DNA of 64,000 nt. It comes from an uncultured Chromatiales bacterium. Lineage in GTDB: Bacteria; Pseudomonadota; Gammaproteobacteria; Poriferisulfidales; Oxydemutatoraceae. This document shows positions 13,416 to 51,024 of the stretch, in pieces. How positions within the stretch are numbered: the stretch's first letter is position 1; the number at the start of each line of letters is the position of its first letter. The translations under genes were made by a program, and so were the position numbers. The notes under the pieces were generated by a model. It did not search any database. It worked only from the letters and a program-made list of their open reading frames with translations, and had not been told where the DNA came from. The stretch is taken from positions 4,126 to 68,125 of the forward strand of contig CAYFZO010000006.1 in NCBI GenBank assembly GCA_964347615.1, in the 5' to 3' direction.

Positions 13416-13423
13416 AATTACGC

Positions 13424-34900: not shown

Positions 34901-35186
34901 GACAATAGCAAAACTTACTCGAGAAATTAAGCAACTTCAAGAAAGGCTGCGGCAAAGAAAACTTTTAGATGAAGCCGAGAAAATTATGGAGATTGAACGC
35001 TCTATCAAGAAAAAAGAAGAAGAAATAGAACGTCGCCGTTCTTATTACAAAGAGATCAAAAATCAATTGAAGCGCGAACATGAACGGACTCTTAAACATC
35101 TCCTTCCTAAACGCTTTGCAATGTCAGGCAACGCTCAAGTATTCCCTGTCACAGTTGAAATTCGTTTCCCGGAACAGCAGCCTTGA
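31929..35186 (+). CDS. SNF2-family helicase (DISARM DrmD-like)
   Basis: 'DYQLVPLLKAL...LIADDVGLGKTVEAG' and 'LIVDECHNL' (DExH) are the N-terminal motifs. 'ATDAASEGLNLHQTARYLLHYDCPWNPSRLEQRNGRLDRYGQ' is the SNF2 C-terminal helicase signature. The gene is translationally coupled to the downstream methyltransferase. Confidence 0.85.
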   Translation: MNNDVPRPGMIATVRNRRGVIASVEPFDGQTGRIHLVDIEYKDNYAPDTERILWEREPNRDLLEPTALPDPTQDPMPPKEFDALLRAARWTALSPYLDPDGDGPLDREPISSPFHGGVRVEDYQLVPLLKALRMPRVSLLIADDVGLGKTVEAGLILTELLLRRRIRRILVLTPASLRQQWQDELWEKFSLRFKIIDRSSTEKLRRDRGIDANPWRSFDRIVASYHYLRQPDVREQFLSACHTPENSPHLPWDLLIVDECHNLMPSSFGEDSELCKTLGLVAPRFEHRLFLSATPHNGHTRSFTGLLEMLDPVRFTRTHEMKPAMRGRINDIMIRRLKRQINAGSATPRFCTRHPPKSLELNTDPRESALSEAFDAFRSAIRNLITEGTKQRRRAGIFAVEILGKRLLSCPTTFAESWSRTRRGFREQDVSDETELAAAERSLRQETGDDRETEKREANAAATIGAWLKNFSDDVKDEINRIEKAIDELGFDLNASIVEQTPCVDVRFDTLVSLIENLLRKKNKFRDDERLIVFTEYKTTLDYVARRLREKYPAERILTLFGAGGQEGMDESERENVKAAFNNPGSPVRVLIATDAASEGLNLHQTARYLLHYDCPWNPSRLEQRNGRLDRYGQARDVTVHHFVSSTDPDLRFIDCVIRKADEIREDLGSVNEVFDRATYRRLIQGEDAESVKTDMYAGLDAAQESSAIEADETATIKNEAASDDALLDAMSKEIDLDSYALGDTLEAAMISSSGRRPQLEVGEEPGCYRVTNPELPHWRDIIDETVRRPSLHAARGPMPQLAFDTKQFIKPLGSLSVFLPRKEVLLIHLAHPLMQRALSLLTQCRYPGNRQVSRWTVRRGDGEIPKDADAAILFSIEEIAVNELRETFHRWVRTVVFPVQNGILGEPLPHIPAHSFRGASVTKNQSEQKQAGEILEEVNGSLRKWLEQHQKELTDSLQNQLESDGKAARGLEENRYKQRQGELSKLIEETTIAKLTREIKQLQERLRQRKLLDEAEKIMEIERSIKKKEEEIERRRSYYKEIKNQLKREHERTLKHLLPKRFAMSGNAQVFPVTVEIRFPEQQP

Positions 35187-38100: not shown

Positions 38101-40558
38101 TGATGCCGTTGAACGTCGCTGGCTCGATGACAATGCCGATTTCCGTGCCCGGGCAAACTTTTTCAGATACGTCCGGGGACCGTTCGGTGATCCAGAAGAA
38201 ACCACCGACGGTAAAAACAGATTTGTGGTTATCCGAGGCAAAACCAATCAGGACCTACATGAAAATTGGCGGCAAGCGCGCAACCACACTGTTAGCTTCA
38301 GCGATCCGAAACATCCATTCCGTCATCAAGGCTCGGCGGATATCAATCTCTATAAACTATTCCTCGAATCTGCCCATGCCTTGTTGGGATTTGGCGGAAG
38401 GTTGGGGTTCATCGTTCCTTCAGGGGTATATTCAGATGACGGAACACAGGCGCTTCGAAAGCTTTTTCTTGACAATTGCCGATGGGAGTGGCTGTTTGGC
38501 ATTGTAAACCGTGAAAACATTTTCCCCATTCATAAAAACTACAAATTCAACCCCGTAATCATTGAAAAAGGCGGAAACACGGAAGCAATCCAAACTGCTT
38601 TCATGCAACGCAATCTCGAAAACTGGGAAAATGCCGAGAGCATCTCTATTTCTTACCCTCAAACGTGGATAAAGCAGTTCAGCCCTAAAAATCGAACTTT
38701 CGTGGAAATTCAATCACAACGTAATTTGGAAATTTTGGAAAAGATATACAACCACAGCATTCTACTAGGTGATAACAGTTCCTCTGGATGGGGCGTTCGT
38801 TACTTTCGTGAATTCGATCAGACAAACGACTCAGAACTCTTCCCACCTCGCCCAGAGTGGGAGAATAAAGGGTATAGACCCGACGAGTACAACCGCTGGT
38901 TGCGAGGCGACTGGCAGCCGATTGAAAACCTCTTGGAGTCTTTAGATATTAATCCAGCCCAGGCCGAACCAGCAGAATTAGAACTTGAAGAGTGGTTGCT
39001 TCACGAGACAAGTTCAGAACGTCAAAAAACCGAAGTCCGACTCGTACGCGGCTATTTGCTCAGACCCGGCGACGTCGCCAGGACCGTTTGGAGTCTACGC
39101 TGCGCGCAGCCACCCTACGACAAACTGCCAATTCCGCGTTCGAAAGTACCTGCTGGAATAATTCTCTCACGAGAGGGTGATACCTATATCCACGTGGATA
39201 AAATCGAAGATATAGCCCTCCCACTTTACGTGGGAAAGATGATTTACGTCGGTGATTGGAACGCATCCACGATTCAGTTAAACGAGTTGAAACAACACAG
39301 CCCCAATCCTGAATACCTTTTAGGTATAAAAGACCTCCGACATAACCGCCAAACAAACAACCGCATCGTTTTCCGTGATGTATCACATGCAACCAATGAA
39401 CGTAGCTTCGTAGCGACTCTCATCCCTGGATTATTTCCCTGCGGGAACAAATTGCCGATACTAAGCTTGCCACCCTACAACCCTGTTCAAAGTCTTGAAT
39501 TAATCAATGCTTTGGTAAGTTTCGGATTCGACTGGGTTGTTCGACAGCGTTTCGCTGGAAATAGCCTCAATTGGCACATTGTCGAACCTTGCCCAGTGCC
39601 GCGCCCGGGTACTAGCACCAACAGAACGATAACGCAGTTGGCAAGGTTATTACTCGGAAACATTCTCTTTTCAAGCGACTGGCTGCAACTTTCGAATCTG
39701 GTTTCGCAGCCTCATTTTTACCCGTGTACTTTCAAAGAAAGGCTTCGTATTACTATTATGCTTGACGCAGTAATGACCGCCACCATGGGGCTTTCGGGGT
39801 CGGATTTTCGACGTATCCTGGCAGGGTGTGATTACCCGGCTGGGAACATCATTGACAAGCAACTAAAAGGTTTCTGGCGCGTGGACAAAGACAAAGCCCC
39901 TGAGCTCCGCCAAACTGTCCTGTCTCTAGTTGCTTTCCAAGACCTCGAAGAGCGAATTAAAGCAGCCAATAACAACGTGGAAAAGGGGATTGATTCTTTT
40001 CTTGCACAAAATCACGGCGAAGGGTGGATGCTGCCGGAAACGTTACGCCTTGCCGACTACGGCCTCGGCCATGACAATCGCGCGAAACAACCACAACCCG
40101 TCGCCAGCCGTCTCCCCGGCCCGCGCTTCTACGATTGGCAACTCGCTCAAAGCCCCAAAGAAGCTTGGCAAGAATGTCATCTCCACGCCCGAAATTTACT
40201 CGGCGCCGATGGTTACGCCCAACACGTTCTGAAACTGATTGAACAACGCGTCTCTAACGATGAAGAGTTTCTTGACCTTCTAACGCTACCGTTTGTGCGT
40301 GATTTCATGAACGAGGATGGTTACACGACGACTATAATCAAACTTCGGGCAAAAAAAATCCTAGACGAGACCGCCTACACCCAACTTCTCGATCATCTTC
40401 GAGCACGTAACCTCTTGGACGAAGTCCGTTATCGTCGCCAACGTGAACGTATTACTTCCACGCCGGAACAGGAGCCTCTGCCGAGAGTAGCCGAGCTCCC
40501 GGCAGACTACGATACCGAAACGCCCTCAAAAGAGAATCAAACAAAGATGTTCGAATAG
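35183..40558 (+). CDS. Giant (1,791-aa) gamma-class N6-adenine DNA methyltransferase (DrmMI/PglX-like) with large N- and C-terminal extensions of unknown function
   Basis: Motif I is 'DPACGSGTFPLAALRFL' at about residue 617. 'IYAVDLDPLAVELCQLSLWIE' follows. Motif IV, 'ILGNPPWD' (NPPW), is at about residue 931. The TTG start overlaps the SNF2 stop. Confidence 0.8.
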   Translation: MSTEQTNADLPGWDSLRHGGLLFDVARLKTLTEFIPPRLNEYVEQQLRHQGSSILNETGDTSTFVTFVLEQVCGLDGSTGTWLRGNNVPSSWGRRAITGETVKPRHLWQGQHDALLPIFIDDKKRIGIGKGRRTISQVLGWLRAGNNQLALITNGRQWRLLFAGLDYDAWCEWDMDMWFEEGGLSPQVTALRTLLNFELWTPKSEDAPPLLLQAIRDTRKGQAELSEELGEQVRKAVEKLIQGHSEALREYHDSVAPADIYRAACRVVMRLIVILFAESRDLLPRENALYHGSYGLNGLFDQLEHSAHHGADLANSWAAWPRILALFNLVRQGSHHPDLPVTAYGGKLFATGRPDPADRASKAIDIFERENQSALFSDRDVHKMLRLLTRTTISIRQGRGVRRSKAPVDFSDLSSEYIGILYEGLLDYELKTAPDDDSVVFLTVGNRPALPLSRLEKMEDGAIRTLFKSLKKKKAVTDDDTSEDSEQESKDVELESKVDELSFDANDVTLYDKNDQLDISRAEAWARRAVQVAKLVKKPLVARVVLPGEWYLVRWGGTRKGSGSFYTRPGLAVPTVQRTLRPLAYDPPPKANGAPDTAARAESWIPKLPEQILDVKTCDPACGSGTFPLAALRFLTDALYKSLQRHERIKRDGERSVIRLLRLHHDKNSTTAGESPFHEELIPCPPDDGDFEPRLKAVLRRHVVERCIYAVDLDPLAVELCQLSLWIETMNRELPFGFLDHKIKCGDALLGAWFDQFQHYPVMAWKNREGGDKNHSEGVHFEKNVRTKKIKDFVKDKLTPDLKLFLRGRDLFQEDTLEIATTAHKESLSVLEKMHKMSVQDTEERARIYHQNFLGRKAWSQIKDAMDLWCACWFWPVDKIEQAPLPSNFAKPPGETLAVAKQTANKMRFFHWELEFPDVFQEQGAGFSAILGNPPWDAPKPISKEFFSDIDPLYRTYGKQEALQYQSRCFKDGDAVERRWLDDNADFRARANFFRYVRGPFGDPEETTDGKNRFVVIRGKTNQDLHENWRQARNHTVSFSDPKHPFRHQGSADINLYKLFLESAHALLGFGGRLGFIVPSGVYSDDGTQALRKLFLDNCRWEWLFGIVNRENIFPIHKNYKFNPVIIEKGGNTEAIQTAFMQRNLENWENAESISISYPQTWIKQFSPKNRTFVEIQSQRNLEILEKIYNHSILLGDNSSSGWGVRYFREFDQTNDSELFPPRPEWENKGYRPDEYNRWLRGDWQPIENLLESLDINPAQAEPAELELEEWLLHETSSERQKTEVRLVRGYLLRPGDVARTVWSLRCAQPPYDKLPIPRSKVPAGIILSREGDTYIHVDKIEDIALPLYVGKMIYVGDWNASTIQLNELKQHSPNPEYLLGIKDLRHNRQTNNRIVFRDVSHATNERSFVATLIPGLFPCGNKLPILSLPPYNPVQSLELINALVSFGFDWVVRQRFAGNSLNWHIVEPCPVPRPGTSTNRTITQLARLLLGNILFSSDWLQLSNLVSQPHFYPCTFKERLRITIMLDAVMTATMGLSGSDFRRILAGCDYPAGNIIDKQLKGFWRVDKDKAPELRQTVLSLVAFQDLEERIKAANNNVEKGIDSFLAQNHGEGWMLPETLRLADYGLGHDNRAKQPQPVASRLPGPRFYDWQLAQSPKEAWQECHLHARNLLGADGYAQHVLKLIEQRVSNDEEFLDLLTLPFVRDFMNEDGYTTTIIKLRAKKILDETAYTQLLDHLRARNLLDEVRYRRQRERITSTPEQEPLPRVAELPADYDTETPSKENQTKMFE

Positions 40559-40596: not shown

Positions 40597-41112
40597 CTAA
40601 CCACCAATCTCTCTGGTGAATCGATTAATTATATCTTCGTTGATGTGCGTAGGGCTAGATTCATGCATTTGGTTAGCAACCGCCAAAGCAGTATGCTGCG
40701 TAAGAACACCAGCAGTAACCAAATCCACCATTAGGGTAAGCCCGAAACGAGTTTTGACGCGATGTTTTTCGCAAAGTCGCTGAAGTGCTCTATCGTTTGT
40801 GACGCACGTCCATCCTCTTTCTTTACAGGTAACGAGGCAAAGGCGGTCATTAAATGAAACGTTTGACTCGACTTCTCCAGCTGCAAGCATTTGTTCTGTC
40901 TCAACTTCGACGACCTCGATACCATAACGACGACACTGAGACACTGATACTCCTCGGACCTCGTCGAGCACGTGCGTCAAAACGGCTATTTGCCCTACGG
41001 ACTGAGTTACGAGTTTTAGAACCTCTAGCTTGGAATCACGGTAGTCTATAAGAACGTCCGCATCCGCAAGAAGCCCAGTTTGTAAGGCCCCGCGTTCAAT
41101 TTGTCCACTCAC
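40597..41112 (-). CDS. PIN-like nuclease-fold protein (DUF4411-like), partner of the HTH-ImmA regulator
   Basis: The N-terminus 'LLADADVLIDY' is a PIN-like first-Asp strand. Further acidic residues follow ('THVLDEVRG', 'VTNDRAL'). Its start overlaps the upstream HTH-ImmA stop. The ImmA-plus-DUF4411 pairing is a recurring defence-island dyad (from memory). Confidence 0.45.
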   Translation of the reverse strand: MSGQIERGALQTGLLADADVLIDYRDSKLEVLKLVTQSVGQIAVLTHVLDEVRGVSVSQCRRYGIEVVEVETEQMLAAGEVESNVSFNDRLCLVTCKERGWTCVTNDRALQRLCEKHRVKTRFGLTLMVDLVTAGVLTQHTALAVANQMHESSPTHINEDIINRFTREIGG

Positions 41113-42229
41113 GCGCCTGTTTCCTCATCTCCTCTCGAGTAATCCTCAATATTTCGGCAGCGCGCCCAAGCGAAATATGCTGCTTCTCGACCGCCCTCCG
41201 CACGAGACGCGATAGGCGATTCTCAACGAAATCGTTATAGGAAAGACCTTCTGGTTCTTCAGATCGGCGCCAGCTCCAAGCAAATTCTCCCGCTTCCAGA
41301 GCGAAAGGCTCGTCGACCTTGCGGAGGGTTTTGCCAAAGCGAGCACGATGCTGCCGTTGAAACGTACGCCAAATTTCAGATTCTGCGCGCTCCGATTCCA
41401 CCAAGCGGTAAAGAACTGTCTTATAACTTACTCGGAAAATTCTCTTGACTTTAAGGACACGAATCAAAAGCGGATGTCCATAAGTTTCATTCCATTCACT
41501 GTTAAATGCTTCCTCCGGCATTAGAAACTCACTTGCGAACGCATCTGCTTCACGTTCTGTATCTGCAGAAAGATCGGTCTCATCACGTTGATACTCCCCA
41601 GGGTGAAGCAATAGATGTCCCAACTCATGTGCTGCGGTAAATATCCAACGCTCCACCGATATTCGGTCCCACCTATTGACAACAATCGCTGGCCCGCCAT
41701 CTTGTTCCCCAGCGCTCAACCCAAAGAAAGAATCCCGCTTTTTGTCCAGAAGCAAGAGTTTTACTCCATTTTTCTCAAGTAATCCACAGATGTCCCGCAC
41801 CGGTTCCTTAGGCCCTAACTCAGCAATCTCACGTACTTTTTGGGCAGCACTTTCAGGTCCTGCACTACGAAAAATCTCAGGGTTAAATTTGAATGGACAC
41901 TGCTCGCCCAGGCTGACTTCCAGACTCTTATAGTCATCCAGCCATTTTGAAACTTCCGCCAAAATTTGCTCTCTCCCATGCACTTGGGTCTTGGCGCGAA
42001 ACCGTACACTCTTGAGAGGACGTACGGGAGTCACGAGAACACCGACCGGAACCGCCAGCGCCTTTGCCAACGCAGTAAGTGTTCCCTCCCGCGGGATGAC
42101 TACACCCCGCTCAATCTTGCCAAGCGCCACCCGTGAAAGCCCCGCCTTATCGGCAAGCTGTTCCTGAGTCAGCTCCCGATCCAAGCGTAACCGCGCTACG
42201 TTTGCGGCAATCCCCGCTCTGTCTTCCAT
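41096..42229 (-). CDS. XRE-family HTH fused to an ImmA/IrrE-family Zn-metallopeptidase
   Basis: The HTH is 'LTQEQLADKAGLSRVALGKIERG'. The HExxH motif is 'FTAAHELGHLLLH'. It is divergently oriented from the Ubl operon. Confidence 0.8.
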   Translation of the reverse strand: MEDRAGIAANVARLRLDRELTQEQLADKAGLSRVALGKIERGVVIPREGTLTALAKALAVPVGVLVTPVRPLKSVRFRAKTQVHGREQILAEVSKWLDDYKSLEVSLGEQCPFKFNPEIFRSAGPESAAQKVREIAELGPKEPVRDICGLLEKNGVKLLLLDKKRDSFFGLSAGEQDGGPAIVVNRWDRISVERWIFTAAHELGHLLLHPGEYQRDETDLSADTEREADAFASEFLMPEEAFNSEWNETYGHPLLIRVLKVKRIFRVSYKTVLYRLVESERAESEIWRTFQRQHRARFGKTLRKVDEPFALEAGEFAWSWRRSEEPEGLSYNDFVENRLSRLVRRAVEKQHISLGRAAEILRITREEMRKQAREWTN

Positions 42230-42252
42230 CTTCGAACTTCGAAAAGCGCCCC

Positions 42253-42281: not shown

Positions 42282-42406
42282 ATCTCCCGAAGTTGTCAAT
42301 ATGAATACTTTCAGATTGGCAGCTATAGGGCCGAACGCTTGGCTGATTGCCGTTTTGCTGTCAGCAGGCTTCGGGATTATACAACAAGCACGGGAGGGAC
42401 CAGATA

Positions 42407-42658
42407 ATGGTTGATCCAGACAAAGTAATCCTCGAAATTGCGGCACCGAAAGGGCTGTTCAAAGGGGAGTTCGAAAAAACTGTTACCGTTCAACAGGTAA
42501 TCGACGCAGTTATAGAAAAACAACAATTGCAGCGCGGCGATGTTTTTGAGCTGTTTTATAAAGGTAAGCAGCTTGAACCAGTAAAACAAACGCTGGCTGA
42601 GTTTAATCTTGCAGGAGTAGTTCAGCTCGAGCTCGTTGCTACCGGTCAAGGAGTATAG
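42407..42658 (+). CDS. Small ubiquitin-like (beta-grasp) protein
   Basis: 83 aa with a GGGAGGGA ribosome-binding site. It is the first gene of an operon that also encodes E2-like, JAB/MPN and E1-like proteins. The C-terminus reads '...LELVATGQGV'. Confidence 0.5.
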   Translation: MVDPDKVILEIAAPKGLFKGEFEKTVTVQQVIDAVIEKQQLQRGDVFELFYKGKQLEPVKQTLAEFNLAGVVQLELVATGQGV

Positions 42659-42664
42659 CGATCC

Positions 42665-43123
42665 ATGGCAACGGTATCTGAGTTGATTCTCGGTGAAGAG
42701 TTCGGTCATTTGCGCGAGATAGCCGAAGCTCGTAACTGGCCTCTCAGTCAAGTCAACAAGCGTACATTTAAGCTCACGCTTACAGCACGTGATGATGCCC
42801 GCTTCAGCTTATTGGTTAGCTGCAGCGATTACCCGCAAAAACCACCGGCTTGGCACTGGTGTAATCCTGAAACGGATGCTCTGGACCAAAAAAGCGATAC
42901 GCCGAAAGGGACTGGAGGATATTTTGACCAGTCGGGTTGCATTTGTGCGCCTTGGAACAGGCTCGCCTATCAGCAAGAGAACCCTGAAGGCCCTCACCCA
43001 GATTGGAATCTTGTGAACTGGAGGACAAATGATTGGACAAAAGGATGCACCACGCTGTCCGCAATGGCGTCACGTATCGCGGTCGAACTCATGAGCGATC
43101 GTTACCGAGGCCGGGAAATCTGA
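42665..43123 (+). CDS. E2-like (UBC-fold) candidate conjugating protein
   Basis: 152-aa protein lying between the Ubl and JAB genes. 'QSGCICAPWN' is a candidate catalytic Cys loop. The assignment is mainly by operon context. Confidence 0.35.
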   Translation: MATVSELILGEEFGHLREIAEARNWPLSQVNKRTFKLTLTARDDARFSLLVSCSDYPQKPPAWHWCNPETDALDQKSDTPKGTGGYFDQSGCICAPWNRLAYQQENPEGPHPDWNLVNWRTNDWTKGCTTLSAMASRIAVELMSDRYRGREI

Positions 43124-43128
43124 GATAA

Positions 43129-43650
43129 ATGCTTGAACGAATAAAAAAGTTGTTTTTTCGTAAACGAGTTTTCAAACCTGGTCCGCCAGAACCACCTAGA
43201 TTGATTTTAGCTCAATCCAGTGTGACTGCTCTACGGTCTTGCATGAAACCGGAAATTCGAAAAAAACACGAAAGTATCGCTTACCTTCTGGGTCAGACTA
43301 ACTCTACGACAACTTTGGTTGTGAGTGTAATCCGACCTCAGGCCCAAACCACACCGGGGAGCTTCAAGGTCGAGTCCGTAGCAATGATACGAATTATGCG
43401 TGCAGCTGTCCGTCTTGGACTTCAGGTAGTTGGACAAATACATACCCATCCTAGGAAAGCATTTCACAGCGAAGGAGACGAGGAAGGAGCACGTATTGCC
43501 TATAGCGGCTACGCTTCGATCGTGTTGCCTGATTATGGGCGACGCCTCCCCTCGTTCAAAGGAGCAGTTGCCTACATGTTCCAGACTAACAGCGGCTTTA
43601 TACCAATCGCTCCAGATTGCTTCGTGATCGTGCCGGGAAAAACATCGTGA
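43129..43650 (+). CDS. JAB/MPN+ (JAMM) metalloprotease / deubiquitinase-like
   Basis: The JAMM motif is 'GQIHTHPRKAFHSEGDEEG' (H-x-H-x7-S-x2-D). An upstream Glu lies in 'FKVESVAMIR'. Confidence 0.7.
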   Translation: MLERIKKLFFRKRVFKPGPPEPPRLILAQSSVTALRSCMKPEIRKKHESIAYLLGQTNSTTTLVVSVIRPQAQTTPGSFKVESVAMIRIMRAAVRLGLQVVGQIHTHPRKAFHSEGDEEGARIAYSGYASIVLPDYGRRLPSFKGAVAYMFQTNSGFIPIAPDCFVIVPGKTS

Positions 43651-44996
43651 ACGGGGAAGACTGGAGAAGGGAACGTGACAGTCGTTCCTTGCTCTATGCG
43701 GGGCGAGTACTCGACCGTAATCGGTGGGTGTCGCTGTGTCCTGATCCACGTTACGTGTCGCGTTACGATGGGCAAGTGGCGCTTCTGACCGCGGCGAATC
43801 TCCTTGGTCGAATGACCCCCAGTATTGCGTTGGATATTCCTGATTCAATCCCCATCGTTGATTCTCTACCTAATGCCGGGAAGAACTTGCGTGACGTGTT
43901 GCTTGACCAGCTTCATGAAGCAGATCCTTCTGGGAGTTTCTGTCGCCGCTCATATAAACCGGATGACTACATCATCAGATTCGGTAAGACCGGCGGCGTC
44001 AATACAGTGCACGGGTCGGGCTGGAAAATGTACTGCGGCCCAAGCCCATCACCTTTGGCAGAAACCGAAACGGTAAATCCAATTGGCCCAGCAATGGCTT
44101 CTATTCTTGCTGTAAGTGAAGCTTTCCGAACAAATCTTACTTCACCTCCCGGACAATACACTTTCGATGCTCTAACTTGGACTTCTGACGTAAAAGATGA
44201 AAGTGATGCTCCACTTCCTACTCAGTCGAAGCTCGGAGAAGTTTGGGTTGTTGGTACTGGCTCAGTTGGAACAGCGGTACTCTATTTTTTGAGCCTTGCT
44301 ACACGGAATTTTTCCGCGGTTCTTTTCGACATGGATATAGTCGAAATTCACAATCTGGATCGATCTCCTATATTCACGAGTAACGATGCGGATAATAAAA
44401 CAAACAAAGCAATAGCGACAAAAAGATATCTAAACCAAGTAGGAGTTTCTAACGTCAAAGCCGAACCACACGCCCTTGATGAATCCGATATCTGGAAAAA
44501 CCGTCAGCCAGGTACCCCCGACGTTTTAGTCCCGACCGCAAACGAGCGTAATGTGCGTTCCCTTATCGAAAGTTACTTTCCGCCAATCCAAGTTTACGGA
44601 ACCACGGGGCAGAACGGACAAGCCACAATGATTCGTCATATTCCCCCGCATGATCCATGTTCGCTTTGCCTATTTCCTGACACTGACCACGCACCAACGA
44701 GTTGCGCGATCGGTAAAGTTGAGAATGAAAGTAATGAAAAGAAAATTGATGCGGCGCTCCCTTTTCTATCCTTTGCTGCAGGAGCAATGGCCGTCGCCGA
44801 AATTCTAAAACTCAGCCTGCCTGATTATCCAGCCAATAGAAGTAACCGAACAATCTTGTACACAGGCTGTCCACCCCGTTTCACATCTGGACAATTATCT
44901 TTCAGAGATGGTTGCCCATGCCGGCAACGTAACTACGACCTTTATCGAAAAATAACCGAGAACACCTGCTTTTCCCACTTGATGCGTTTCTCATGA
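43617..44996 (+). CDS. E1-like ThiF/MoeB-family activating enzyme
   Basis: The Rossmann nucleotide-binding motif is 'VWVVGTGSVGTAVLYFL', with 'FDMDIVEIHNLDRS' after it. A C-terminal Cys pair lies in 'PHDPCSLCLFPDTDH...SCAIG'. Its start overlaps the JAB gene. Confidence 0.7.
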   Translation: MLRDRAGKNIVNGEDWRRERDSRSLLYAGRVLDRNRWVSLCPDPRYVSRYDGQVALLTAANLLGRMTPSIALDIPDSIPIVDSLPNAGKNLRDVLLDQLHEADPSGSFCRRSYKPDDYIIRFGKTGGVNTVHGSGWKMYCGPSPSPLAETETVNPIGPAMASILAVSEAFRTNLTSPPGQYTFDALTWTSDVKDESDAPLPTQSKLGEVWVVGTGSVGTAVLYFLSLATRNFSAVLFDMDIVEIHNLDRSPIFTSNDADNKTNKAIATKRYLNQVGVSNVKAEPHALDESDIWKNRQPGTPDVLVPTANERNVRSLIESYFPPIQVYGTTGQNGQATMIRHIPPHDPCSLCLFPDTDHAPTSCAIGKVENESNEKKIDAALPFLSFAAGAMAVAEILKLSLPDYPANRSNRTILYTGCPPRFTSGQLSFRDGCPCRQRNYDLYRKITENTCFSHLMRFS

Positions 44997-45027: not shown

Positions 45028-48000
45028 ATGTATTATCGGCTGGTTTGGAACTTTCAAAGTGCTGTATTTCCAATGGCTTTAAACCCCATCGCTTACACGG
45101 AAAGCGTCGTCCGTAGTTTTCTGCGTTACCAACTTACGGCGTACCCTTTCGCTGACCAAAGATTGCACGAACAGATGTGCAAATTGCTGTCTCTTAACGA
45201 AACTCGTCAGTCTCCCCTCCTCAAAGGCCCCTACGTCAGCTTATCGCGCTCATTCCGGCAAGGCGCTTCAGTCGCGTCTTTAGTGAAAGAAAGGCTGCTA
45301 CACCCTCACTTACAACAACGTATTCGCAACGAAGTTACACATCTCTATAGTCATCAAGAAAAAGCGATCCGTGCTATTGCGAAGAAGCAGACAACCCTCG
45401 TATCCACCGGAACCGGTTCAGGCAAAACCGAATGCTTCCTCTATCCCATCATTAGCCAATGCCTGAAACTCAGGGATGAAAAAGCATCCCCCGGTATTAG
45501 CGCGGTCATTGTCTATCCGATGAACGCATTGGCGGAAGATCAGCTCATGCGATTACGCGGCCTGTTGGCAGGCACTGGAATTCCATTTGGGATTTATGTA
45601 GGCAAGACACCTGAGAATGAAGCCGATGTGACTGGCGTTAAATTGCATGATGGGGCGTCACGGGATGATTACGAAACCCGGCTGAAACGAGCACAACAAG
45701 AAAGCAGCGGCGAGACGGTTTATCCAGCAGAAGAGGTTTGTTCACGGGAGGTTATGCGCACAGAAGGCAAACAGCCACGAATTCTCTTAACCAACGTGAA
45801 GCAGCTTGAGCTGCTGCTGACGCGGCAGATAGATATTCAACTGTTCGCTAATGCTCGACTGGATTTTCTGGTATTCGATGAGGCTCATACGTTCACTGGG
45901 GCGCTAGGAGCGGAAACAGCCTGCCTAATCCGGCGCCTGCGTGCATTCTGTGACATCAATATAAACCACACTACATGCGTCGCTACCTCAGCAACGATCG
46001 TTGATAAGGAAGAGCCTGACGCCGCCCGAAAATTCGCCGCACGATTTTTCGGCGTTCCACGCGAAGCAGTAACTACAGTTAATGAAGACTACGAAAAAGA
46101 CGTTTGGGAAGAGCCACGGTTTGTTCCCACTGCTCCCCCTGAAAAAGCTGCCGATATTCTCAGCAACTGTATTGAGGCAGTTGAAGACGAAGACAATTCA
46201 AACGCTGAAAAAATAGAGGCAATCTATCGTGCGTTAACCGGCGAGGGCCTGCCCGAAAGAAACTGGCCGGAAGCCCTGCACAATGCTATGTCTCGCAATG
46301 ATCTGGTTTTTCGCTTGAACGAGGAGCTCCATACCCCGAGGGAGCTGGCGGAATTACCAGCAGCACTTGAACGGCATATCGACCGCCCTGTAGCTGAGGA
46401 AGAAATTCTTGCTTGGCTGACGTTAGGGGCGGCAGCACGCAAGCAAGGTCGACCTTTATTACGCCCCATCGTACATAACTTCGTACGCGGCATCAGCGGC
46501 GCCGTGGTGACATTTCCTAAAGATATGAATAGCCCGAAGCTATGGCTCGCTGCAAAAGACGAGGGTGAGATTGAACCTGACACGTCTGAAGATAAACATG
46601 CGCATTTTCCTGTAACGACCTGTACTACTTGTGGACAGCACTACTTCATTGCGTTCCTAAAAGACTTCTCTTTCACCGGAAACGTGCCTGAGGGCGGTGA
46701 AACCAGCTCCACCGGCCCTTGGTGGTCTTCGAAAGAAGAAACTTTGGGTGGTAAACGCGTTGTTCTAGTAGACAAATTGATTGGAGAAAGTGACGAAGAC
46801 GAGGACACGTCTCCTCATGCGAAGATGGCACCACTCTATTTCTGTCGCCGATGCGGAACAGCACACCTTGAAACACAGTCACGATGCCTTTGCTGTGGAT
46901 ATGAAAATGGTACGGTTCAGCTGCACGCAGTCCGCCAGAAGGAAAAAAATCCTGGCAAACTGGCCAGCTGCCTTTCTTGTGGTTCTACCAGTCGTCGACT
47001 CGGCGGGGATTACCGCGAACCAGCCCGGCCCGTGCGTGCAGTTAACGTGGCGGACGTGCACGTTCTCACCCAAGACATGGTGCACCACGCAGAACGACGT
47101 CGTCTGCTCGTATTCTGCGATAACCGGCAGGACGCGGCATTTCAAGCTGGCTGGATGAAAGACCGCGCCCGACGTTTCAGGTTACGAGCGTTAATGATGG
47201 AAAACATCAAAAAAAGCGCGTGCTCCGTAGGCGATTTGGCCGGGCATCTCGATAAGTTAATGGAAAAAGATGAAACCCTTTCACGAGCGTTGCTTCCTGA
47301 GGTATGGCGCGTTGCACGTCGAGAAGACAGCGGTACCCGCCACCAACAGGAACGCTACAAGTTTCTTCGCTTCCAAGTATTGCGCGAAGTTACACTGCCG
47401 TCACGACAAGCGGTTGGTCTCGAGCCATGGGGCCGCATGAAAATCGAATACACGGGGCTCGACGCGGTGCTACCATGGATTCAGAAGCATGCTCATTCCC
47501 TAAGCCTCCCCCCAGATGGCTTGCGGGAAGGCGTCGCAAGCGTACTCGACTACTTGAGACGAAGAGGGGTGCTGTATGACCCTGAGAATGAGATATTTAC
47601 GAAATACTGGGGAAAAGGAGACCTTGAGATCCAGCGTGGGTACTTACCCGACTCTATTCGACCCAACTCCACCAAGCTACAGCGCCAAGCAGATGAAAAA
47701 CGGGAAGTAATTATTCAATGGATAAGCGACAGGGGCAGCCCAACGGTACCCCAAATCGTCAAGAAATGGGGGGCAGAGAAAAACGCAATCAAACCACTTT
47801 TGGAAAGCTTGTTTCAATTCTTAAAGGAAAACAAACTACTAGTGCCTGTACGACTTAAAGGTTACAAAGGCCGCGCGCTCCCAAAGGTACACGGCGTCTA
47901 CCAAGTAAATAGCGACAAATTACTGTTGACTCCGAACAAAGGCATGAGACGTTGTCGTAGCTGTCGCCGCACTACCACTCGGAACTTACCTTACGACCAC

Positions 48001-51000
48001 TGCCCTGCCCGGAATTGCAACGGAACTTTGGAATGGGTGCCGGAAGATCCAGACAACTATGATTTGCATCTGCTCGATAGCGCATACGAAATGCTGCGTC
48101 CGGAAGAACACACTGCTATGGTCCCATCTGAGGACCGCGAACGTTTTGAGAACTTGTTTAAGGGTGAATCAGAGGCAGTAAATTGTCTGGTGTGTACCCC
48201 AACGTTGGAACTAGGAATTGATATCGGGCGACTCGACTCAGTCCTGATGCGCAACGTACCCCCGTTGCCGGCAAATTATTGGCAGCGCGCCGGACGCGCC
48301 GGACGGCGACATCGCATGGCGGTGAATGTCACCTATTGCCGACCAGTCTCACACGACCGTGCCTACTTCTCAGAGCCGCCTAAATTGCTGGCAGGCAGGA
48401 TTGACCCTCCGGCATTTAATCTAAGAAACGAAGTGATGGTCGAAAAACACGTTCACGCAATAATCATCGCCTCTTTGTATCGCTATTGTCATGATAACGC
48501 TAGACCAGAAGCGGAACGTAACACGATACAGGAAACTTTGCTCAATTGTTTTCCCTCGTTTATCTCGCCTTATCTATTCGATGACAATGAAGAAGTACGG
48601 ACAACGCTGTTCGGCTTCACTTCCTTACGCGATTTAGTTCAGGAAAACTATCAAGCATTGGTCACCGACGTGCAACGTGTGTTTGAGCAAGGATGGCCAG
48701 AGACGGATGCCGACGTTGTAACCCAAGAAGCTCTTTCTGCCTACGTCGCCAAATTCGCCGATAACTTGGAAAACGTCGTCAAACGTTTGCAGCGCCGTCT
48801 GCGTTGGGCTATGAACCAGATTCAGCGCCTCAATAATCACCGTCAGAGCCAGGGAACGCTTTCCCGTGAGGATGAAACGCTATTCCGCCGTTGCGACAAT
48901 CTGGTAAAACGACTAAAAGGCACGAGCTGGAGACGACGAAGCCGAGCGGAAGGGCACTACGACTCGAACACGTTCAGCGTGCTCTCAGCGGAGGGATTCC
49001 TGCCGGGTTACGGCCTGGAAGTCGGCTCGATAAGAGGTGAAGCGGAAATTCCACCCTGGCTCCCCGGAGCTAAGAGTTTTTCTTTACCTCGACCGCCTGC
49101 AATCGCTCTACGTGAATACGTTCCTGGCAATCTCATCTATGCCAACGGACAACGTTTTGTCGCGCGTCACTTTCGCCGCGAGGCAGGCGAGGAATATTCA
49201 GAGATGCCGTGCTACGAAGTATCAATTGACCACCAAGCCGTTAAGCCCGTTAGTTTAAATGCACCCTCGTCATTAGGCGGATACGTCCTCCAAACAATAT
49301 CCGTCTGTGATACGGACTTAATTCATACTTCACACATATCCGACGAAGAAGAATTTCGGTTTCAATTAGGCTTAGCTATTTACGGATTGGAAATCAAGCA
49401 GCACAACGGCGGAATCTCATATCGTTGGGGAGAAAAAACCATGCAACATCGCCGTGGAGTACATATACAACTTGTCAACGTAGGGGCTTTGCTCGCCATC
49501 CGCAAAGGAGAAATTGGTTATCCTGTCTGCACGGTATGCGGCCAAAGTATCTCCCCTATTTCCTCTGACAGACAGCACCAAGAGTTTGTTAAAGATCACA
49601 AGGAACGTTGTGGACGTGAGCCAAAATCTATCGGTTTCTATACCAACGTAGTTGCCGACGCGCTTTCGCTGCCTGAGTGTGACAACTTGGAAATCGCGTA
49701 CAGCGTCTTAGAGTCTTTGCGCTTCGCCGCTACTAGAGTACTTGACATGCATACGGAAGACTTGCAGGTGCTTGTTATAGGACACGTTGAACGAGACGGC
49801 GTAGATGCTTTGTTATGGGATCCAATGCCTGGTGGATCCGGGCTGCTTGACCGCGTGTGTGAACGCTTTGATGAAATCGTGCAAGCAGCTAAAGAAATCG
49901 TTAGTGATTGTCCCGCAGTATGTGACTCATCCTGCATAGATTGCCTTCAGACGTTCCGCAACGCTTATTACCATGAGCACCTCAATCGCCATACAGCCCA
50001 AACACGATTGGAAGAATGGGGAGAACAGCTGGTACGCCGTCACGATATTCCACCGTTGCAACAAAACATTGCCTCCAGCAAAAATGCAATGCCGGTTAAC
50101 GAGGCAGAAACCAAGCTGCGGCACCTGCTACTCGCCGCTGGATTTGACGAAGGCATCCGAGACGAACAGATTCAGTTAGATCGAGCAATAGGAACTACAA
50201 CACCTGACGTAATCTACCGAACGGAAACCGATGGAACAGACGAAGGTGTATGTATTTATTTGGACGGATTGAGTGCACATATCCATGGCAACCCAAAAAC
50301 CGCTGAGAAAGACAGGGAAATCCGGGATTGGTTACGCAATAGAGGATATGAGGTCATTGAAATCACCGCTAACCAGTTAGACGATGAAGATGCAATGACA
50401 CGTCACTTTCGCCGCCTCGCAAGATATTTGCAGATGCCAGATACATTAAGCCGGCTGCGTGATGATCACTCGTGGTTTCGCCAATCTAAAAAGGCATCAG
50501 TTTCTCCTTTGCGATTGGTTACACCGACACCTGAAACGCGTTATGTCACCTGCGTGCCTCTAGTCCCCTTGCAGATTGCCGCAGGGACGTTTGGCGATCC
50601 CAATGCCGCTCCCGACGAATCCGAATGGCAGTGGGTAAAACTTAACTCAGTACGCACGCTGCGCCCTGGAATGTTTGTTGCTGCCGTAACTGGAAAATCT
50701 ATGGAGCCAAAAATACCCGATGGCTCATACTGCCTTTTTTCCGGCCCTGTCACTGGGACGCGGCAAGAAAAAATCGTGCTTGCTCAAATGCACGACACGA
50801 TTGACCCTGAAACCGGGGCCAGGTTTACTGTAAAACGCTATCGGAGCACGAAAGGGGAAAACGACGATGGCTGGCGACACATCAAAATCACCCTTGAACC
50901 TATTAACCCTGACTATCAACCGATTGAGTTAGCGACGGATAACGAGAACTCCGTCACAGTAGCCGCGGAACTGGTTAGCGTTCTTGGCCAAGACGCTCCT

Positions 51001-51024
51001 GTAGATGATACGGATTCTCTCTAA
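45028..51024 (+). CDS. Giant (1,998-aa) multidomain protein. Domains in order: DEAD/DEAH SF2 helicase with multiple Zn-ribbon insertions, a DUF1998 (MrfA/DrmA-B)-like region, a DUF559/Vsr-like nuclease-fold region, and a C-terminal LexA/S24 peptidase domain.
   Basis: Motif I 'VSTGTGSGKTECF' is at about residue 126, motif II 'VFDEAHTF' at about 281, and motif VI 'QRAGRAGRR' at about 1,086. CxxC pairs are present ('CTTCGQ', 'CRRCG...CLCCG', 'CLSCG', 'CRSCRR...CPARNC', 'CTVCGQ...C'). 'GVCIYLDGLSAHIHGNP...EIRDW...YEVIEI' is at about residue 1,740. The C-terminus reads 'PLVPLQIAAGTFGDP' followed by 'TGKSMEPKIPDGSY...KR', the S24 Ser/Lys dyad. Confidence 0.8.
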   Translation: MYYRLVWNFQSAVFPMALNPIAYTESVVRSFLRYQLTAYPFADQRLHEQMCKLLSLNETRQSPLLKGPYVSLSRSFRQGASVASLVKERLLHPHLQQRIRNEVTHLYSHQEKAIRAIAKKQTTLVSTGTGSGKTECFLYPIISQCLKLRDEKASPGISAVIVYPMNALAEDQLMRLRGLLAGTGIPFGIYVGKTPENEADVTGVKLHDGASRDDYETRLKRAQQESSGETVYPAEEVCSREVMRTEGKQPRILLTNVKQLELLLTRQIDIQLFANARLDFLVFDEAHTFTGALGAETACLIRRLRAFCDININHTTCVATSATIVDKEEPDAARKFAARFFGVPREAVTTVNEDYEKDVWEEPRFVPTAPPEKAADILSNCIEAVEDEDNSNAEKIEAIYRALTGEGLPERNWPEALHNAMSRNDLVFRLNEELHTPRELAELPAALERHIDRPVAEEEILAWLTLGAAARKQGRPLLRPIVHNFVRGISGAVVTFPKDMNSPKLWLAAKDEGEIEPDTSEDKHAHFPVTTCTTCGQHYFIAFLKDFSFTGNVPEGGETSSTGPWWSSKEETLGGKRVVLVDKLIGESDEDEDTSPHAKMAPLYFCRRCGTAHLETQSRCLCCGYENGTVQLHAVRQKEKNPGKLASCLSCGSTSRRLGGDYREPARPVRAVNVADVHVLTQDMVHHAERRRLLVFCDNRQDAAFQAGWMKDRARRFRLRALMMENIKKSACSVGDLAGHLDKLMEKDETLSRALLPEVWRVARREDSGTRHQQERYKFLRFQVLREVTLPSRQAVGLEPWGRMKIEYTGLDAVLPWIQKHAHSLSLPPDGLREGVASVLDYLRRRGVLYDPENEIFTKYWGKGDLEIQRGYLPDSIRPNSTKLQRQADEKREVIIQWISDRGSPTVPQIVKKWGAEKNAIKPLLESLFQFLKENKLLVPVRLKGYKGRALPKVHGVYQVNSDKLLLTPNKGMRRCRSCRRTTTRNLPYDHCPARNCNGTLEWVPEDPDNYDLHLLDSAYEMLRPEEHTAMVPSEDRERFENLFKGESEAVNCLVCTPTLELGIDIGRLDSVLMRNVPPLPANYWQRAGRAGRRHRMAVNVTYCRPVSHDRAYFSEPPKLLAGRIDPPAFNLRNEVMVEKHVHAIIIASLYRYCHDNARPEAERNTIQETLLNCFPSFISPYLFDDNEEVRTTLFGFTSLRDLVQENYQALVTDVQRVFEQGWPETDADVVTQEALSAYVAKFADNLENVVKRLQRRLRWAMNQIQRLNNHRQSQGTLSREDETLFRRCDNLVKRLKGTSWRRRSRAEGHYDSNTFSVLSAEGFLPGYGLEVGSIRGEAEIPPWLPGAKSFSLPRPPAIALREYVPGNLIYANGQRFVARHFRREAGEEYSEMPCYEVSIDHQAVKPVSLNAPSSLGGYVLQTISVCDTDLIHTSHISDEEEFRFQLGLAIYGLEIKQHNGGISYRWGEKTMQHRRGVHIQLVNVGALLAIRKGEIGYPVCTVCGQSISPISSDRQHQEFVKDHKERCGREPKSIGFYTNVVADALSLPECDNLEIAYSVLESLRFAATRVLDMHTEDLQVLVIGHVERDGVDALLWDPMPGGSGLLDRVCERFDEIVQAAKEIVSDCPAVCDSSCIDCLQTFRNAYYHEHLNRHTAQTRLEEWGEQLVRRHDIPPLQQNIASSKNAMPVNEAETKLRHLLLAAGFDEGIRDEQIQLDRAIGTTTPDVIYRTETDGTDEGVCIYLDGLSAHIHGNPKTAEKDREIRDWLRNRGYEVIEITANQLDDEDAMTRHFRRLARYLQMPDTLSRLRDDHSWFRQSKKASVSPLRLVTPTPETRYVTCVPLVPLQIAAGTFGDPNAAPDESEWQWVKLNSVRTLRPGMFVAAVTGKSMEPKIPDGSYCLFSGPVTGTRQEKIVLAQMHDTIDPETGARFTVKRYRSTKGENDDGWRHIKITLEPINPDYQPIELATDNENSVTVAAELVSVLGQDAPVDDTDSL

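What the first reader, a model, noticed from the sequence alone, without database searches (positions are those of the whole stretch)
50480..51024. C-terminal LexA/S24 peptidase domain, with a LexA-like Ala-Gly cleavage motif, fused to the giant helicase
The last about 180 aa contain the S24 Ser/Lys dyad context 'TGKSMEPKIPDGSYCLF...TVKRY'. Some 60 aa upstream, 'VPLVPLQIAAGTFGDP' closely mirrors the LexA self-cleavage region 'PLVGRVAAGEPLLA'. The Ala-Gly bond sits at codons 50,581-50,586. This suggests RecA*-stimulated or otherwise autocatalytic removal of the C-terminal domain. That would be a DNA-damage or ssDNA-sensing switch built into a defence helicase-nuclease. S24 domains are known on repressors (LexA, CI) and UmuD. 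I am not aware of one fused to a helicase of this type.
Basis: partly seen in the sequence, partly recalled or inferred. Interest (0 to 1): 0.9.

Follow-up and report, generated by a model that had tools for sequence, protein, structure and literature searches.

The report
Self-cleaving LexA-like module on defence helicase
The last ~170 residues of a 2,000-residue anti-phage helicase-nuclease form an intact LexA-type self-cutting protease domain with its own Ala-Gly cut site; the same module sits on many unrelated restriction enzymes, pointing to a widespread, undescribed proteolytic switch on bacterial DNA-cutting defences.

Summary

The helicase is not Druantia. [quoted passage not shown] A PIN/HTH-M78 pair and a Bil ubiquitin-like operon are inserted between the methylase and the helicase.

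More than 100 protein clusters and at least 42 species genomes carry the same fusion. The same S24 subfamily (about 60% identical) also caps Type I HsdR/HsdS, Type ISP, MmeI-like, ResIII, PLD, HNH and Schlafen-type defence proteins. AAG, Ser and Lys are at least 97% conserved and decay together in rare members. Clean S24-less variants exist.

I found no description in the searched literature, including the 2025 YprA-family survey.

Self-cleavage is strongly implied but untested. I favour a damage-triggered off-switch (built-in restriction alleviation by exposing an ...AA-COOH end) over activation. The trigger and direction remain open, because LexA's RecA-contact acidic patch is not conserved.

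The parts
45073..51024 (+). Gene for the YprA-like (DruE-like) helicase + Vsr nuclease + S24 module. The longest ORF starts at 45028; the probable start is M16 at 45073.
   Evidence: PADLOC DruE1 3e-118 and DruE3 9e-108. P0121 is 100% identical and 1983 aa long.
45340..45903 (+). SF2 helicase RecA1 region (DEAD/ResIII), residues 105-292.
   Evidence: Pfam DEAD 2.8e-21 and ResIII 6.5e-7.
48115..48309 (+). Helicase_C (RecA2), residues 1030-1094.
   Evidence: Pfam 4.1e-11.
49717..49947 (+). MZB/DUF1998 zinc-binding domain, residues 1564-1640. This is the hallmark of YprA-family helicases.
   Evidence: Pfam PF09369 4.8e-9.
50092..50496 (+). Vsr-type PD-(D/E)xK nuclease domain, residues 1689-1823 ('...PDVIYR...CIYLDGLSAHIHGN...EVIEI...SWF').
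50500..50571 (+). Conserved pre-cleavage segment of the module, residues 1825-1848 ('LRLVTPTPETRYVTCVPLVPL'). It would stay on the enzyme after cleavage.
   Evidence: Counts among 325 modules: P1833 288, R1838 273, Y1839 266, C1842 285, P1844 325, L1848 314.
50581..50586 (+). Predicted scissile bond A1852|G1853 in 'PLQIAA|GTFGDP'.
   Evidence: Aligned to LexA A84-G85. Counts among 325 modules: A1851 321, A1852 322, G1853 317.
50584..50988 (+). S24 catalytic core, residues 1853-1987. This is the fragment predicted to be released.
50698..50700 (+). Nucleophile Ser1891 (G-K-S-M-E-P).
   Evidence: Equivalent to LexA S119. Conserved in 323 of 325 modules.
50833..50835 (+). General base Lys1936 (T-V-K-R-Y).
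   Evidence: Equivalent to LexA K156. Conserved in 321 of 325 modules; the other 4 have Arg.
50797..50820 (+). Subfamily-specific 8-residue insertion (T1924-A1931, near-invariant D-P-[ED]-T-G). It sits where LexA has its RecA-contacting acidic patch.
   Evidence: HHalign gap. Conservation. RecA contacts from PMC9926225.
31929..35186 (+). BrxHII/DrmD-like SNF2 helicase, an ARMADA partner.
   Evidence: PADLOC DrmD 8e-202 and BrxHII 1.9e-70.
35183..40558 (+). PglX-like / type IIG methyltransferase, an ARMADA partner.
   Evidence: PADLOC REase_MTase_IIG E=0 and DrmMI 2e-126. Pfam Eco57I in the same gene of L005.
40597..42229 (-). PIN protein (40597-41112) and HTH + M78 metallopeptidase (41096-42229). 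This is a CapH/CapP-like regulator pair, and is cargo inserted inside the ARMADA locus.
   Evidence: Pfam PIN, HTH_3 and Peptidase_M78. PADLOC RmrA 3e-38 and capP 1.5e-18.
42347..44996 (+). BilA (Ubl), BilB (E2), BilC (JAB) and BilD (E1) operon, immediately upstream of the helicase gene on the same strand.
   Evidence: PADLOC BilB, BilC and BilD. Pfam ubiquitin (weak), Prok-JAB and ThiF. Promoter-like site at 42253-42281.

Best explanation
What it is (shown). Residues ~1825-1998 of an ARMADA-type YprA helicase / Vsr nuclease form a complete LexA/UmuD-type S24 autoprotease module. The module has a cleavage-site strand with A1852|G1853, the nucleophile S1891 and the general base K1936, arranged in cis exactly as in LexA.

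The module belongs to a distinct, highly conserved S24 subfamily. This subfamily is not found on repressors. It occurs as a portable C-terminal cap on many unrelated DNA-acting defence proteins.

How it most likely works (inferred).
1. The domain cuts its own chain intramolecularly at A1852|G1853 when it is pushed into the cleavable conformation. The most likely trigger is RecA-ssDNA filaments, that is, DNA damage or stalled replication.
2. This releases the 146-residue S24 core. The ~1,850-residue helicase-nuclease is left ending in ...PLQIAA-COOH.
3. I favour the view that cleavage switches the enzyme OFF. The new Ala-Ala C-terminus resembles the ClpXP degron exposed on LexA(1-84) and the ssrA tag. 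Alternatively or in addition, loss of the S24 dimerisation surface could disable the enzyme.
4. Either route would remove or disable the nuclease while the chromosome carries unmodified or damaged DNA. This would be a cis-encoded form of restriction alleviation.

Confidence by step:
- about 0.9 that it is a genuine, catalytically competent self-cleaving S24 module;
- about 0.55 that RecA* is the trigger;
- about 0.45 that the outcome is inactivation rather than activation.
For: Identity:
- Pfam S24 39.2 bits against a cut-off of 23.3.
- HHalign to LexA 94%, with AG, Ser and Lys in register.
- AF2 pLDDT 88.6.

Selection on catalysis:
- AAG, Ser and Lys are kept in at least 97% of 325 modules and in at least 90% of 58 modules that are under 60% identical to each other.
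- In rare decayed members the features are lost together. P0206 has lost AG, with S>A and K>R. P0158 has AG>AT and K>R.

Modularity:
- Family members at 70% identity end cleanly after the Vsr domain and lack the module.
- The same module (60-62% core identity) caps HsdR, HsdS, Type ISP, MmeI/Eco57I-like, ResIII, PLD-helicase, UvrD-like, Schlafen-helicase and MTase-HNH proteins.

Arguments for the off-switch:
- Most partners are modification-linked translocating restriction enzymes. Here the partner is ARMADA, with a PglX-like methylase.
- Proteolytic restriction alleviation after DNA damage or hypomethylation is established for such enzymes: EcoKI HsdR with ClpXP (PMC4231737, PMC11109961) and PAO1 HsdR with Lon (10.1101/2024.10.21.619520).
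- Fusion to HsdS, which has no nuclease site to occlude, fits a stability or assembly switch better than active-site autoinhibition.
- P2 Ala is near-invariant (321/325), although lambda CI (VQA|G) and UmuD (VQC|G) show that catalysis does not need it. LexA(1-84), ending in ...VAA, is a ClpXP substrate. These last two points rest on my own knowledge.

RecA plausibility: the LexA pocket residues F111, L113 and V153, which receive the RecA L2 loop (PMC9926225), align with conserved hydrophobic residues F1883, A1885 and F/Y1933.
Against: - No cleavage experiment exists for any member.
- LexA's acidic patch D150/D151/E152, which contacts RecA K232/R243/K245, aligns with H/R1922, D1923 and R1932. 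An 8-residue insertion with near-invariant DPETG sits at that position. A second insertion carries the near-invariant W1949 and H1951. The co-protease surface therefore differs from LexA's and the trigger may not be RecA*.
- The degron idea rests on analogy only.
- Some partners (Schlafen-type helicase, UvrD-like helicase, PLD and HNH proteins) are not obviously modification-dependent and would be better served by an activating switch.
- The C-terminal position of the module is dictated by S24 topology, so it does not discriminate between models.
- I could not inspect the model coordinates to check the distance between the Ala-Gly bond and the Ser.
Confidence: 0.45

Rival explanations
1. ON switch. 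The S24 domain keeps the helicase-nuclease autoinhibited. RecA*/ssDNA generated by phage replication or DNA damage triggers self-cleavage. Removal of the domain then unleashes the Vsr nuclease.
For: The evidence for a competent self-cleaving module is the same as for the main explanation. Protease-triggered activation is common in defence systems, and UmuD is an S24 protein activated by cleavage (own knowledge). Related DruE helicases act on ssDNA-containing replication intermediates (PMC13192584). Partners such as Schlafen-type and UvrD-like helicases and PLD or HNH proteins lack an obvious methylation-based self/non-self rule and would need activation.
Against: Natural S24-less variants at 70% identity would then be constitutively active. 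Most partners are restriction enzymes that already work without activation. Fusion to HsdS, which has no nuclease, is hard to explain by autoinhibition of an active site.
Confidence: 0.25
2. Self-cleavage occurs but is triggered by something other than RecA*. Candidates are a phage protein, another host co-protease or a DNA structure that docks on the subfamily-specific insertions. Either functional direction is possible.
For: The LexA acidic RecA-contact patch is not conserved. Two insertions carry invariant residues: DPETG at 1926-1930, and W1949 with H1951. Core identity of about 60% across unrelated host enzymes implies a strongly constrained partner surface. RecA-independent LexA-like proteins are known (IrvR, PMC7101444, listed).
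Against: All well-studied S24 autoproteases with an Ala/Cys-Gly site respond to RecA*. The hydrophobic pocket residues that receive RecA L2 are retained. RecA is itself a highly conserved partner, which would explain the constraint across phyla.
Confidence: 0.2
3. There is no regulated cleavage. The S24 fold serves only as a dimerisation or scaffold domain, as LexA, CI and UmuD C-domains dimerise. Alternatively, the protein self-processes constitutively during maturation.
For: S24 C-domains are dimerisation modules (PMC9926225). DruE works as a dimer (PMC13192584). Many translocating restriction enzymes need two enzyme molecules to cut (own knowledge).
Against: A pure scaffold would not keep the scissile AAG, Ser and Lys at 97% or more, nor lose them together in decayed copies. 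Constitutive processing would make the domain pointless, yet it is conserved in at least 595 species genomes.
Confidence: 0.08
4. Artefact: a chance motif, a mis-assembled chimera or a decaying pseudogene tail.
For: Some database relatives are fragments or split genes: L002-L004 have three ORFs, L001 is a remnant and P0020 is an internal deletion.
Against: The window ORF is uninterrupted and identical to independently assembled copies. At least 42 species representatives carry an uninterrupted ORF of 1900 aa or more with the same C-terminus. The profile and fold matches are significant.
Confidence: 0.02

Closest known systems
LexA / UmuD / lambda CI (MEROPS S24 self-cleaving proteins)
   Different: The N-terminal passenger is a ~1,820-residue helicase-nuclease rather than a DNA-binding domain or a short UmuD arm. 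There are two subfamily-specific insertions. LexA's RecA-contacting acidic patch is not conserved. There is an extra conserved pre-cleavage segment, LRLVxP...RYVTCVP. Sequence similarity to solved S24 proteins is weak (E 0.1-0.9 by profile).
ARMADA defence systems (YprA-like helicase + BrxHII-like helicase + PglX-like methylase; Bell et al., bioRxiv 10.1101/2025.09.15.676423)
   Same: YprA-family helicase with MZB/DUF1998 and a C-terminal Vsr nuclease. A BrxHII/DrmD-like SNF2 helicase and a PglX-like methylase lie upstream on the same strand. This is the 'reversed' type I-like order.
   Different: The description of ARMADA YprA proteins does not mention an S24 domain in the text or in the 3 supplement files held as text. 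Here 4.5 kb of cargo (PIN/HTH-M78 plus the Bil operon) separates the methylase from the helicase gene.
Druantia DruE
   Same: The best PADLOC matches are DruE1 and DruE3 (3e-118 and 9e-108). It is a giant SF2 helicase with DUF1998 and a C-terminal nuclease.
   Different: No DruA-D, DruH or DruM partners are present. The nuclease is Vsr-type, whereas DruE type III has PLD domains. The matches are fragmented into 3-4 stretches.
Proteolytic restriction alleviation (EcoKI HsdR/ClpXP; P. aeruginosa HsdR/Lon)
   Same: Post-translational, proteolysis-based control of a translocating restriction subunit to prevent self-attack after DNA damage or hypomethylation (PMC4231737; PMC11109961; 10.1101/2024.10.21.619520). 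The S24 module also occurs on HsdR and HsdS proteins.
   Different: In those systems the protease acts in trans and recognises stalled translocating complexes. Here the protease would be built into the enzyme and gated by a LexA-like conformational switch. The link is an inference.
CapH/CapP and related HTH + M78 regulators of defence operons
   Same: A DNA-damage/ssDNA-responsive protease controls a defence system. A fused HTH-M78 gene lies in this same island (41096-42229).
   Different: CapP is a metallopeptidase that cleaves a separate repressor, so control is transcriptional. The S24 module is a serine autoprotease acting on the effector polypeptide itself.

Membership tests
Peptidase S24 (LexA/UmuD/CI type autoproteases) | Significant match to the family profile | tested here: met
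   PF00717 E=6.4e-10, 39.2 bits against a gathering score of 23.3. HHalign against LexA gives 94% probability and E=1.2e-7.
Peptidase S24 (LexA/UmuD/CI type autoproteases) | S24 beta-fold | tested here: met
Peptidase S24 (LexA/UmuD/CI type autoproteases) | Ser nucleophile and Lys general base in the conserved motifs | tested here: met
   S1891 aligns with S119 and K1936 with K156. They are conserved in 323 and 321 of 325 modules.
Peptidase S24 (LexA/UmuD/CI type autoproteases) | Ala-Gly (or Cys-Gly) scissile bond in a cleavage-site region N-terminal to the core | tested here: met
   A1852-G1853 aligns with A84-G85. It lies 38 residues before the Ser. A and G are conserved in 322 and 317 of 325 modules.
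Peptidase S24 (LexA/UmuD/CI type autoproteases) | Demonstrated self-cleavage | not testable with these tools
   This needs biochemistry. Indirect support comes from the co-decay of AG, Ser and Lys in P0206 and P0158.
Peptidase S24 (LexA/UmuD/CI type autoproteases) | RecA* co-protease dependence (LexA determinants: F111/L113/V153 pocket and D150-E152 acidic patch) | tested here: inconclusive
   The pocket equivalents F1883, A1885 and F/Y1933 are conserved. The acidic patch aligns with H/R1922, D1923 and R1932, with an 8-residue insertion at that position.
LexA repressor (orthologue) | N-terminal winged-helix DNA-binding domain, ~200 aa protein | tested here: not met
   The region N-terminal to the module is a helicase-nuclease of about 1,820 residues. 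No member of the subfamily shows a repressor architecture.
ARMADA defence system | YprA-family helicase with DUF1998/MZB and a C-terminal Vsr-type nuclease | tested here: met
ARMADA defence system | [quoted passage not shown] | tested here: met
   31929-35186 hits DrmD/BrxHII and 35183-40558 hits REase_MTase_IIG/DrmMI. The same pair lies upstream of relatives L006 and L008. In the window, 4.5 kb of cargo separates the pair from the helicase gene.
ARMADA defence system | BrxA-like insertion after RecA1; placement in the ARMADA clade of the YprA tree | not tested
   No structure of the N-terminal part was predicted and no tree with the published representatives was built.
Druantia | DruE together with DruA-D, DruM/F/G or DruH | tested here: not met
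   PADLOC scan of nine neighbouring ORFs found no Dru partner. The DruE hits reflect shared YprA ancestry.

The most novel reading that the evidence does not exclude
A single, highly conserved LexA-like autoprotease cassette is a portable post-translational switch that bacteria across many phyla have bolted onto the C-termini of unrelated DNA-targeting immune enzymes. These include Type I, ISP and IIG restriction enzymes, ARMADA helicase-nucleases, and PLD, HNH and Schlafen-type helicases. The cassette would wire these enzymes directly to the RecA/SOS damage signal. Self-cleavage at AA|G would expose a LexA/ssrA-like ...AA-COOH degron and so provide a built-in, general mechanism of restriction alleviation and autoimmunity control. 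Under the alternative reading, it would license the nuclease instead.
Probability: 0.35. Interest if true: 0.85.

Novelty: new variant of a known kind. Interest (0 to 1): 0.76.

Why it matters
How large nucleases of bacterial immunity avoid destroying their own chromosome after DNA damage or loss of methylation is known only for a few Type I enzymes, where trans-acting ClpXP or Lon is used.

A cis-encoded LexA-type self-cleaving module would be a general, portable solution. It is found on ARMADA helicases and on at least a dozen other defence architectures, in at least 595 species genomes. It would be the first case of the SOS-type S24 switch acting on an effector enzyme rather than on a repressor or UmuD.

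It is directly testable with point mutants and standard LexA cleavage assays. A cultured carrier exists (Syntrophus buswellii DM-2).

It also adds an unreported domain to the recently defined ARMADA family, and offers a compact conditional-cleavage tag for engineering.

Tried and rejected
1. phmmer of the C-terminal 214 aa against PDB sequences found nothing. A family profile found only weak LexA/UmuD hits, E 0.1-0.9. The identification therefore rests on Pfam, HHalign and fold comparison.
2. Druantia membership is rejected. No Dru partner genes are present, and the locus matches ARMADA.
3. 'Stand-alone' S24 proteins of 160-330 aa from the first homologue search looked like a separate family. 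They turned out to be gene fragments, split genes or deletion remnants of the same helicase, or of HsdR and Type ISP proteins.
4. The idea that Bil and the helicase form one conserved system is rejected. Other genomes carry different cargo at the same position.
5. A LexA-identical RecA interface is not supported, because the acidic patch is not conserved.
6. Nine literature searches and reading of the YprA-family, Druantia III and modularity-network papers found no mention of S24 on defence enzymes. The library lacks most subscription-journal papers, so absence is not proof.
7. tblastn of the module against PLSDB plasmids gave one weak hit at 37% identity. The module is essentially absent from sequenced plasmids.
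8. I could not measure the Ala-Gly to Ser distance or the inter-domain contacts, because model coordinates are not exposed.
9. The organism of the window was not identified.

Full report
**1. The observation**

The flagged interval lies at the 3' end of ORF 45028..51024 (+), which is 1998 aa long. An identical protein in public assemblies, P0121, starts at Met16, so the true start is probably nt 45073. All residue numbers below count from 45028.

- 'QIAAGTFGDP' begins at residue 1849.
- A1852-G1853 = nt 50581-50586.
- Ser1891 in TGKSMEP = nt 50698.
- Lys1936 in TVKRY = nt 50833.

One detail is wrong. The Ala-Gly bond is 38 residues upstream of the Ser, not about 60. In LexA the distance is 34.

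**2. Is it a real S24 domain?**

- Pfam Peptidase_S24 scores 39.2 bits (E=6.4e-10, gathering score 23.3) on the last 214 aa, and is also significant on the whole protein.
- Plain sequence search against PDB found nothing. A family profile found only weak LexA/UmuD hits. The subfamily is therefore divergent.
- A profile-profile comparison with E. coli LexA gives 94% probability and E=1.2e-7. The comparison aligns A1852-G1853 with A84-G85, S1891 with S119 and K1936 with K156.
- An AlphaFold2 model of residues 1689-1998, built with a 150-sequence alignment, has mean pLDDT 88.6 and pTM 0.75.
- The 11 best Foldseek PDB matches for the model are all LexA, lambda CI or UmuD.

The C-terminus of the protein therefore reads: Vsr nuclease (1689-1823), then a conserved linker and cleavage-site region (1825-1858), then the S24 core (to about 1987), then a variable tail.

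**3. What the giant protein is**

PADLOC's best hits are DruE models (3e-118 and 9e-108, in several fragments). No Druantia partner gene is present.

Upstream on the same strand lie two genes:
- a BrxHII/DrmD-like SNF2 helicase at 31929-35186;
- a PglX-like type IIG methyltransferase at 35183-40558.

This trio, with a YprA-family helicase bearing a C-terminal Vsr nuclease, is the recently defined ARMADA system. It appears here in the 'reversed' order that Bell et al. describe (bioRxiv 10.1101/2025.09.15.676423).

About 4.5 kb of other genes lies between the methylase and the helicase:
- a PIN protein and an HTH + M78 peptidase on the minus strand (CapH/CapP- and RmrA-like);
- a four-gene Bil ubiquitin-like operon.

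Related genomes carry different cargo at this position. L006 has RelB/YafQ and an IS element. L007 has a Prok-E2_A operon. L008 has an AAA_15/21 gene. Bil is therefore a passenger and not a partner of the helicase.

**4. The fusion is a family trait**

- A whole-protein search returned more than 100 clusters of about 1,970-2,030 aa at 64-78% identity. Nearly all carry PF00717. JGI auto-annotates some as 'YprA (DUF1998)/LexA'.
The 80 best are all Vsr+S24 C-termini. They come from Acidobacteriota, Binatia, Gemmatimonadota, Planctomycetota, Desulfobacterota, Cyanobacteria, Actinomycetota and others.
- In 42 of these 80 loci the ORF is uninterrupted and at least 1,900 aa long. One is the cultured Syntrophus buswellii DM-2 (L044, 1,980 aa).
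- Six family members at about 70% identity lack the core. Five end cleanly after the Vsr domain ('...DRSWF...'). One (P0186) stops two residues after the predicted cleavage site.

The module is therefore an optional add-on that has been lost within the clade.

**5. The module is portable**

Searches with the S24 part alone found the same subfamily on other proteins: 45-65% identity, with 126 clusters (at 50% identity) below E=1e-30. It sits at the C-terminus of these partners:
- Type ISP enzymes;
- MmeI/Eco57I-like type IIG enzymes;
- Type I HsdR and HsdS;
- ResIII helicases with and without a PLD domain;
- a UvrD-like helicase;
- a Schlafen-type helicase;
- a methyltransferase-HNH protein.

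None has a repressor architecture.

Mean core identity between host architectures is nearly as high as within the ARMADA family:

| Comparison | Mean core identity |
|---|---|
| Within ARMADA | 67% |
| ARMADA vs HsdR | 62% |
| ARMADA vs Type ISP | 60% |
| HsdR vs Type ISP | 71% (maximum 86%) |

This points to recent shuffling, a strongly constrained partner surface, or both.

**6. Is catalysis under selection?**

Conservation among 325 full-coverage modules:

| Residue | Conserved in |
|---|---|
| A1851 | 321 |
| A1852 | 322 |
| G1853 | 317 |
| S1891 | 323 |
| K1936 | 321 (the other 4 have Arg) |

In 58 modules that are under 60% identical to each other, the same positions stay at 90% or more.

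The rare exceptions lose several features together. P0206 has no AG, S>A and K>R. P0158 has AG>AT and K>R. This is what one expects if the three features serve one function, namely self-cleavage.

**7. Mechanism**

*Shown.* The module has every sequence and fold feature of a cis-acting S24 autoprotease.

*Inferred.* It cuts A1852|G1853. This releases a 146-residue core and leaves the helicase-nuclease ending in ...PLQIAA.

*The trigger.*
- By analogy the trigger is RecA-ssDNA. The LexA pocket that receives RecA loop L2 (F111, L113, V153; PMC9926225) aligns with conserved F1883, A1885 and F/Y1933.
- However, LexA's acidic patch D150-E152 aligns with H/R1922, D1923 and R1932.
- An 8-residue insertion with near-invariant D-P-[ED]-T-G sits at that position. 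A second insertion carries the near-invariant W1949 and H1951.
- RecA dependence therefore cannot be assumed.

*The direction.* I favour an off-switch, for four reasons.
- Most partners are modification-linked translocating restriction enzymes that need no activation. They are known to need proteolytic restriction alleviation after damage or hypomethylation: EcoKI with ClpXP (PMC4231737, PMC11109961) and PAO1 with Lon (10.1101/2024.10.21.619520).
- Fusion to HsdS, which has no nuclease site, fits a stability or assembly switch.
- The residue before the scissile Ala is itself almost invariably Ala. CI (VQA|G) and UmuD (VQC|G) show that catalysis does not need this. LexA(1-84), ending in ...VAA, and the ssrA tag, ending in ...LAA, are ClpXP degrons (own knowledge).
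- S24-less variants end before this motif.

**8. Novelty**

S24 autoproteases and ARMADA are both known. An S24 module on an effector enzyme, and its spread over many defence architectures, is not described in anything I could search. The sources checked include:
- the dedicated YprA-family survey, both its text and the 3 supplement files held as text;
- the 2026 Druantia papers;
- a modularity-network study;
- further literature searches.

The library omits most subscription-journal papers, so this absence is not proof. I classify the finding as a new variant of a known kind. It is of high interest because it is widespread, mechanistically suggestive and immediately testable.

Noticed in passing
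window 6994-8858 and 9381-18136 (-): A type I-U/I-G-like CRISPR-Cas locus: Cas4-Cas1 fusion (9381-11105), Cas_GSU0054 (11223-13415), Cas_GSU0053 (13424-14530) and Cas3 (15419-18136). Next to it is a CRISPR array with a ~36-nt repeat, GCTTCAATGAAGCCGGCGCAACGTTGCGCCGGATTT, and a period of ~73.
   Followed up: partly
window 455-6222: An AAA_15/AAA_21 ATPase (455-2107) plus a 1038-aa ResIII-like protein (2107-5223), which looks like a Gabija-like pair. It is followed by an AbiJ_NTD4 + DUF7014 protein (5284-6222). The whole window is one long defence island.
   Followed up: no
window 29141-31097: An AAA_21 ATPase (429 aa) plus a DUF4276 protein (225 aa), directly upstream of the ARMADA genes. This is probably another two-gene defence module.
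   Followed up: no
window 40597-44996; L001, L007: The gap between the ARMADA methylase and helicase genes is a cargo hotspot. The window holds PIN + HTH-M78 and a BilABCD operon. L007 holds the same PIN + HTH-M78 pair with a Prok-E2_A operon. L006 holds RelB/YafQ and an IS element. L008 holds an AAA_15/21 gene. The PIN + HTH-M78 pair recurs next to this helicase family.
   Followed up: partly
window 42253-42281: A near-consensus sigma-70-type promoter (TTGACA-17-TATCAT, 11 of 12 matches). It lies in the divergent gap between the HTH-M78 gene and BilA. No convincing terminator separates BilD from the helicase gene, so the helicase may be co-transcribed with Bil under the HTH-M78 regulator.
   Followed up: no
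P0186 (relative, 1837 aa): A 70%-identical family member ends at ...CVPLIPLHAARR, two residues past the predicted scissile Ala-Ala. It could be a genomically 'pre-cleaved' allele or a coincidental truncation.
   Followed up: no
L001 10001-10972; L002-L004; P0020: Decayed copies of the gene. L001 holds a stand-alone Vsr+S24 remnant beside the same PIN/HTH-M78 pair. L002-L004 hold a copy split into three ORFs, seen in three assemblies. P0020 is an in-frame internal deletion joining the first ~70 aa to the last ~230 aa.
   Followed up: partly
window 50500-50571 (residues 1825-1848): The segment LRLVxPxxxRYVTCVPLVPL just before the cleavage site is as conserved as the catalytic core. Beyond 'LPLVGRV' it has no LexA counterpart. 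It would remain on the enzyme after cleavage, and could be a docking or degron element.
   Followed up: partly
window 57883-59550: A RecN-like SMC_N ATPase (555 aa) lies about 7 kb downstream, next to NAD kinase and Fur. RecN is a typical SOS gene, so the host probably has a RecA/SOS system. The organism itself was not identified.
   Followed up: no
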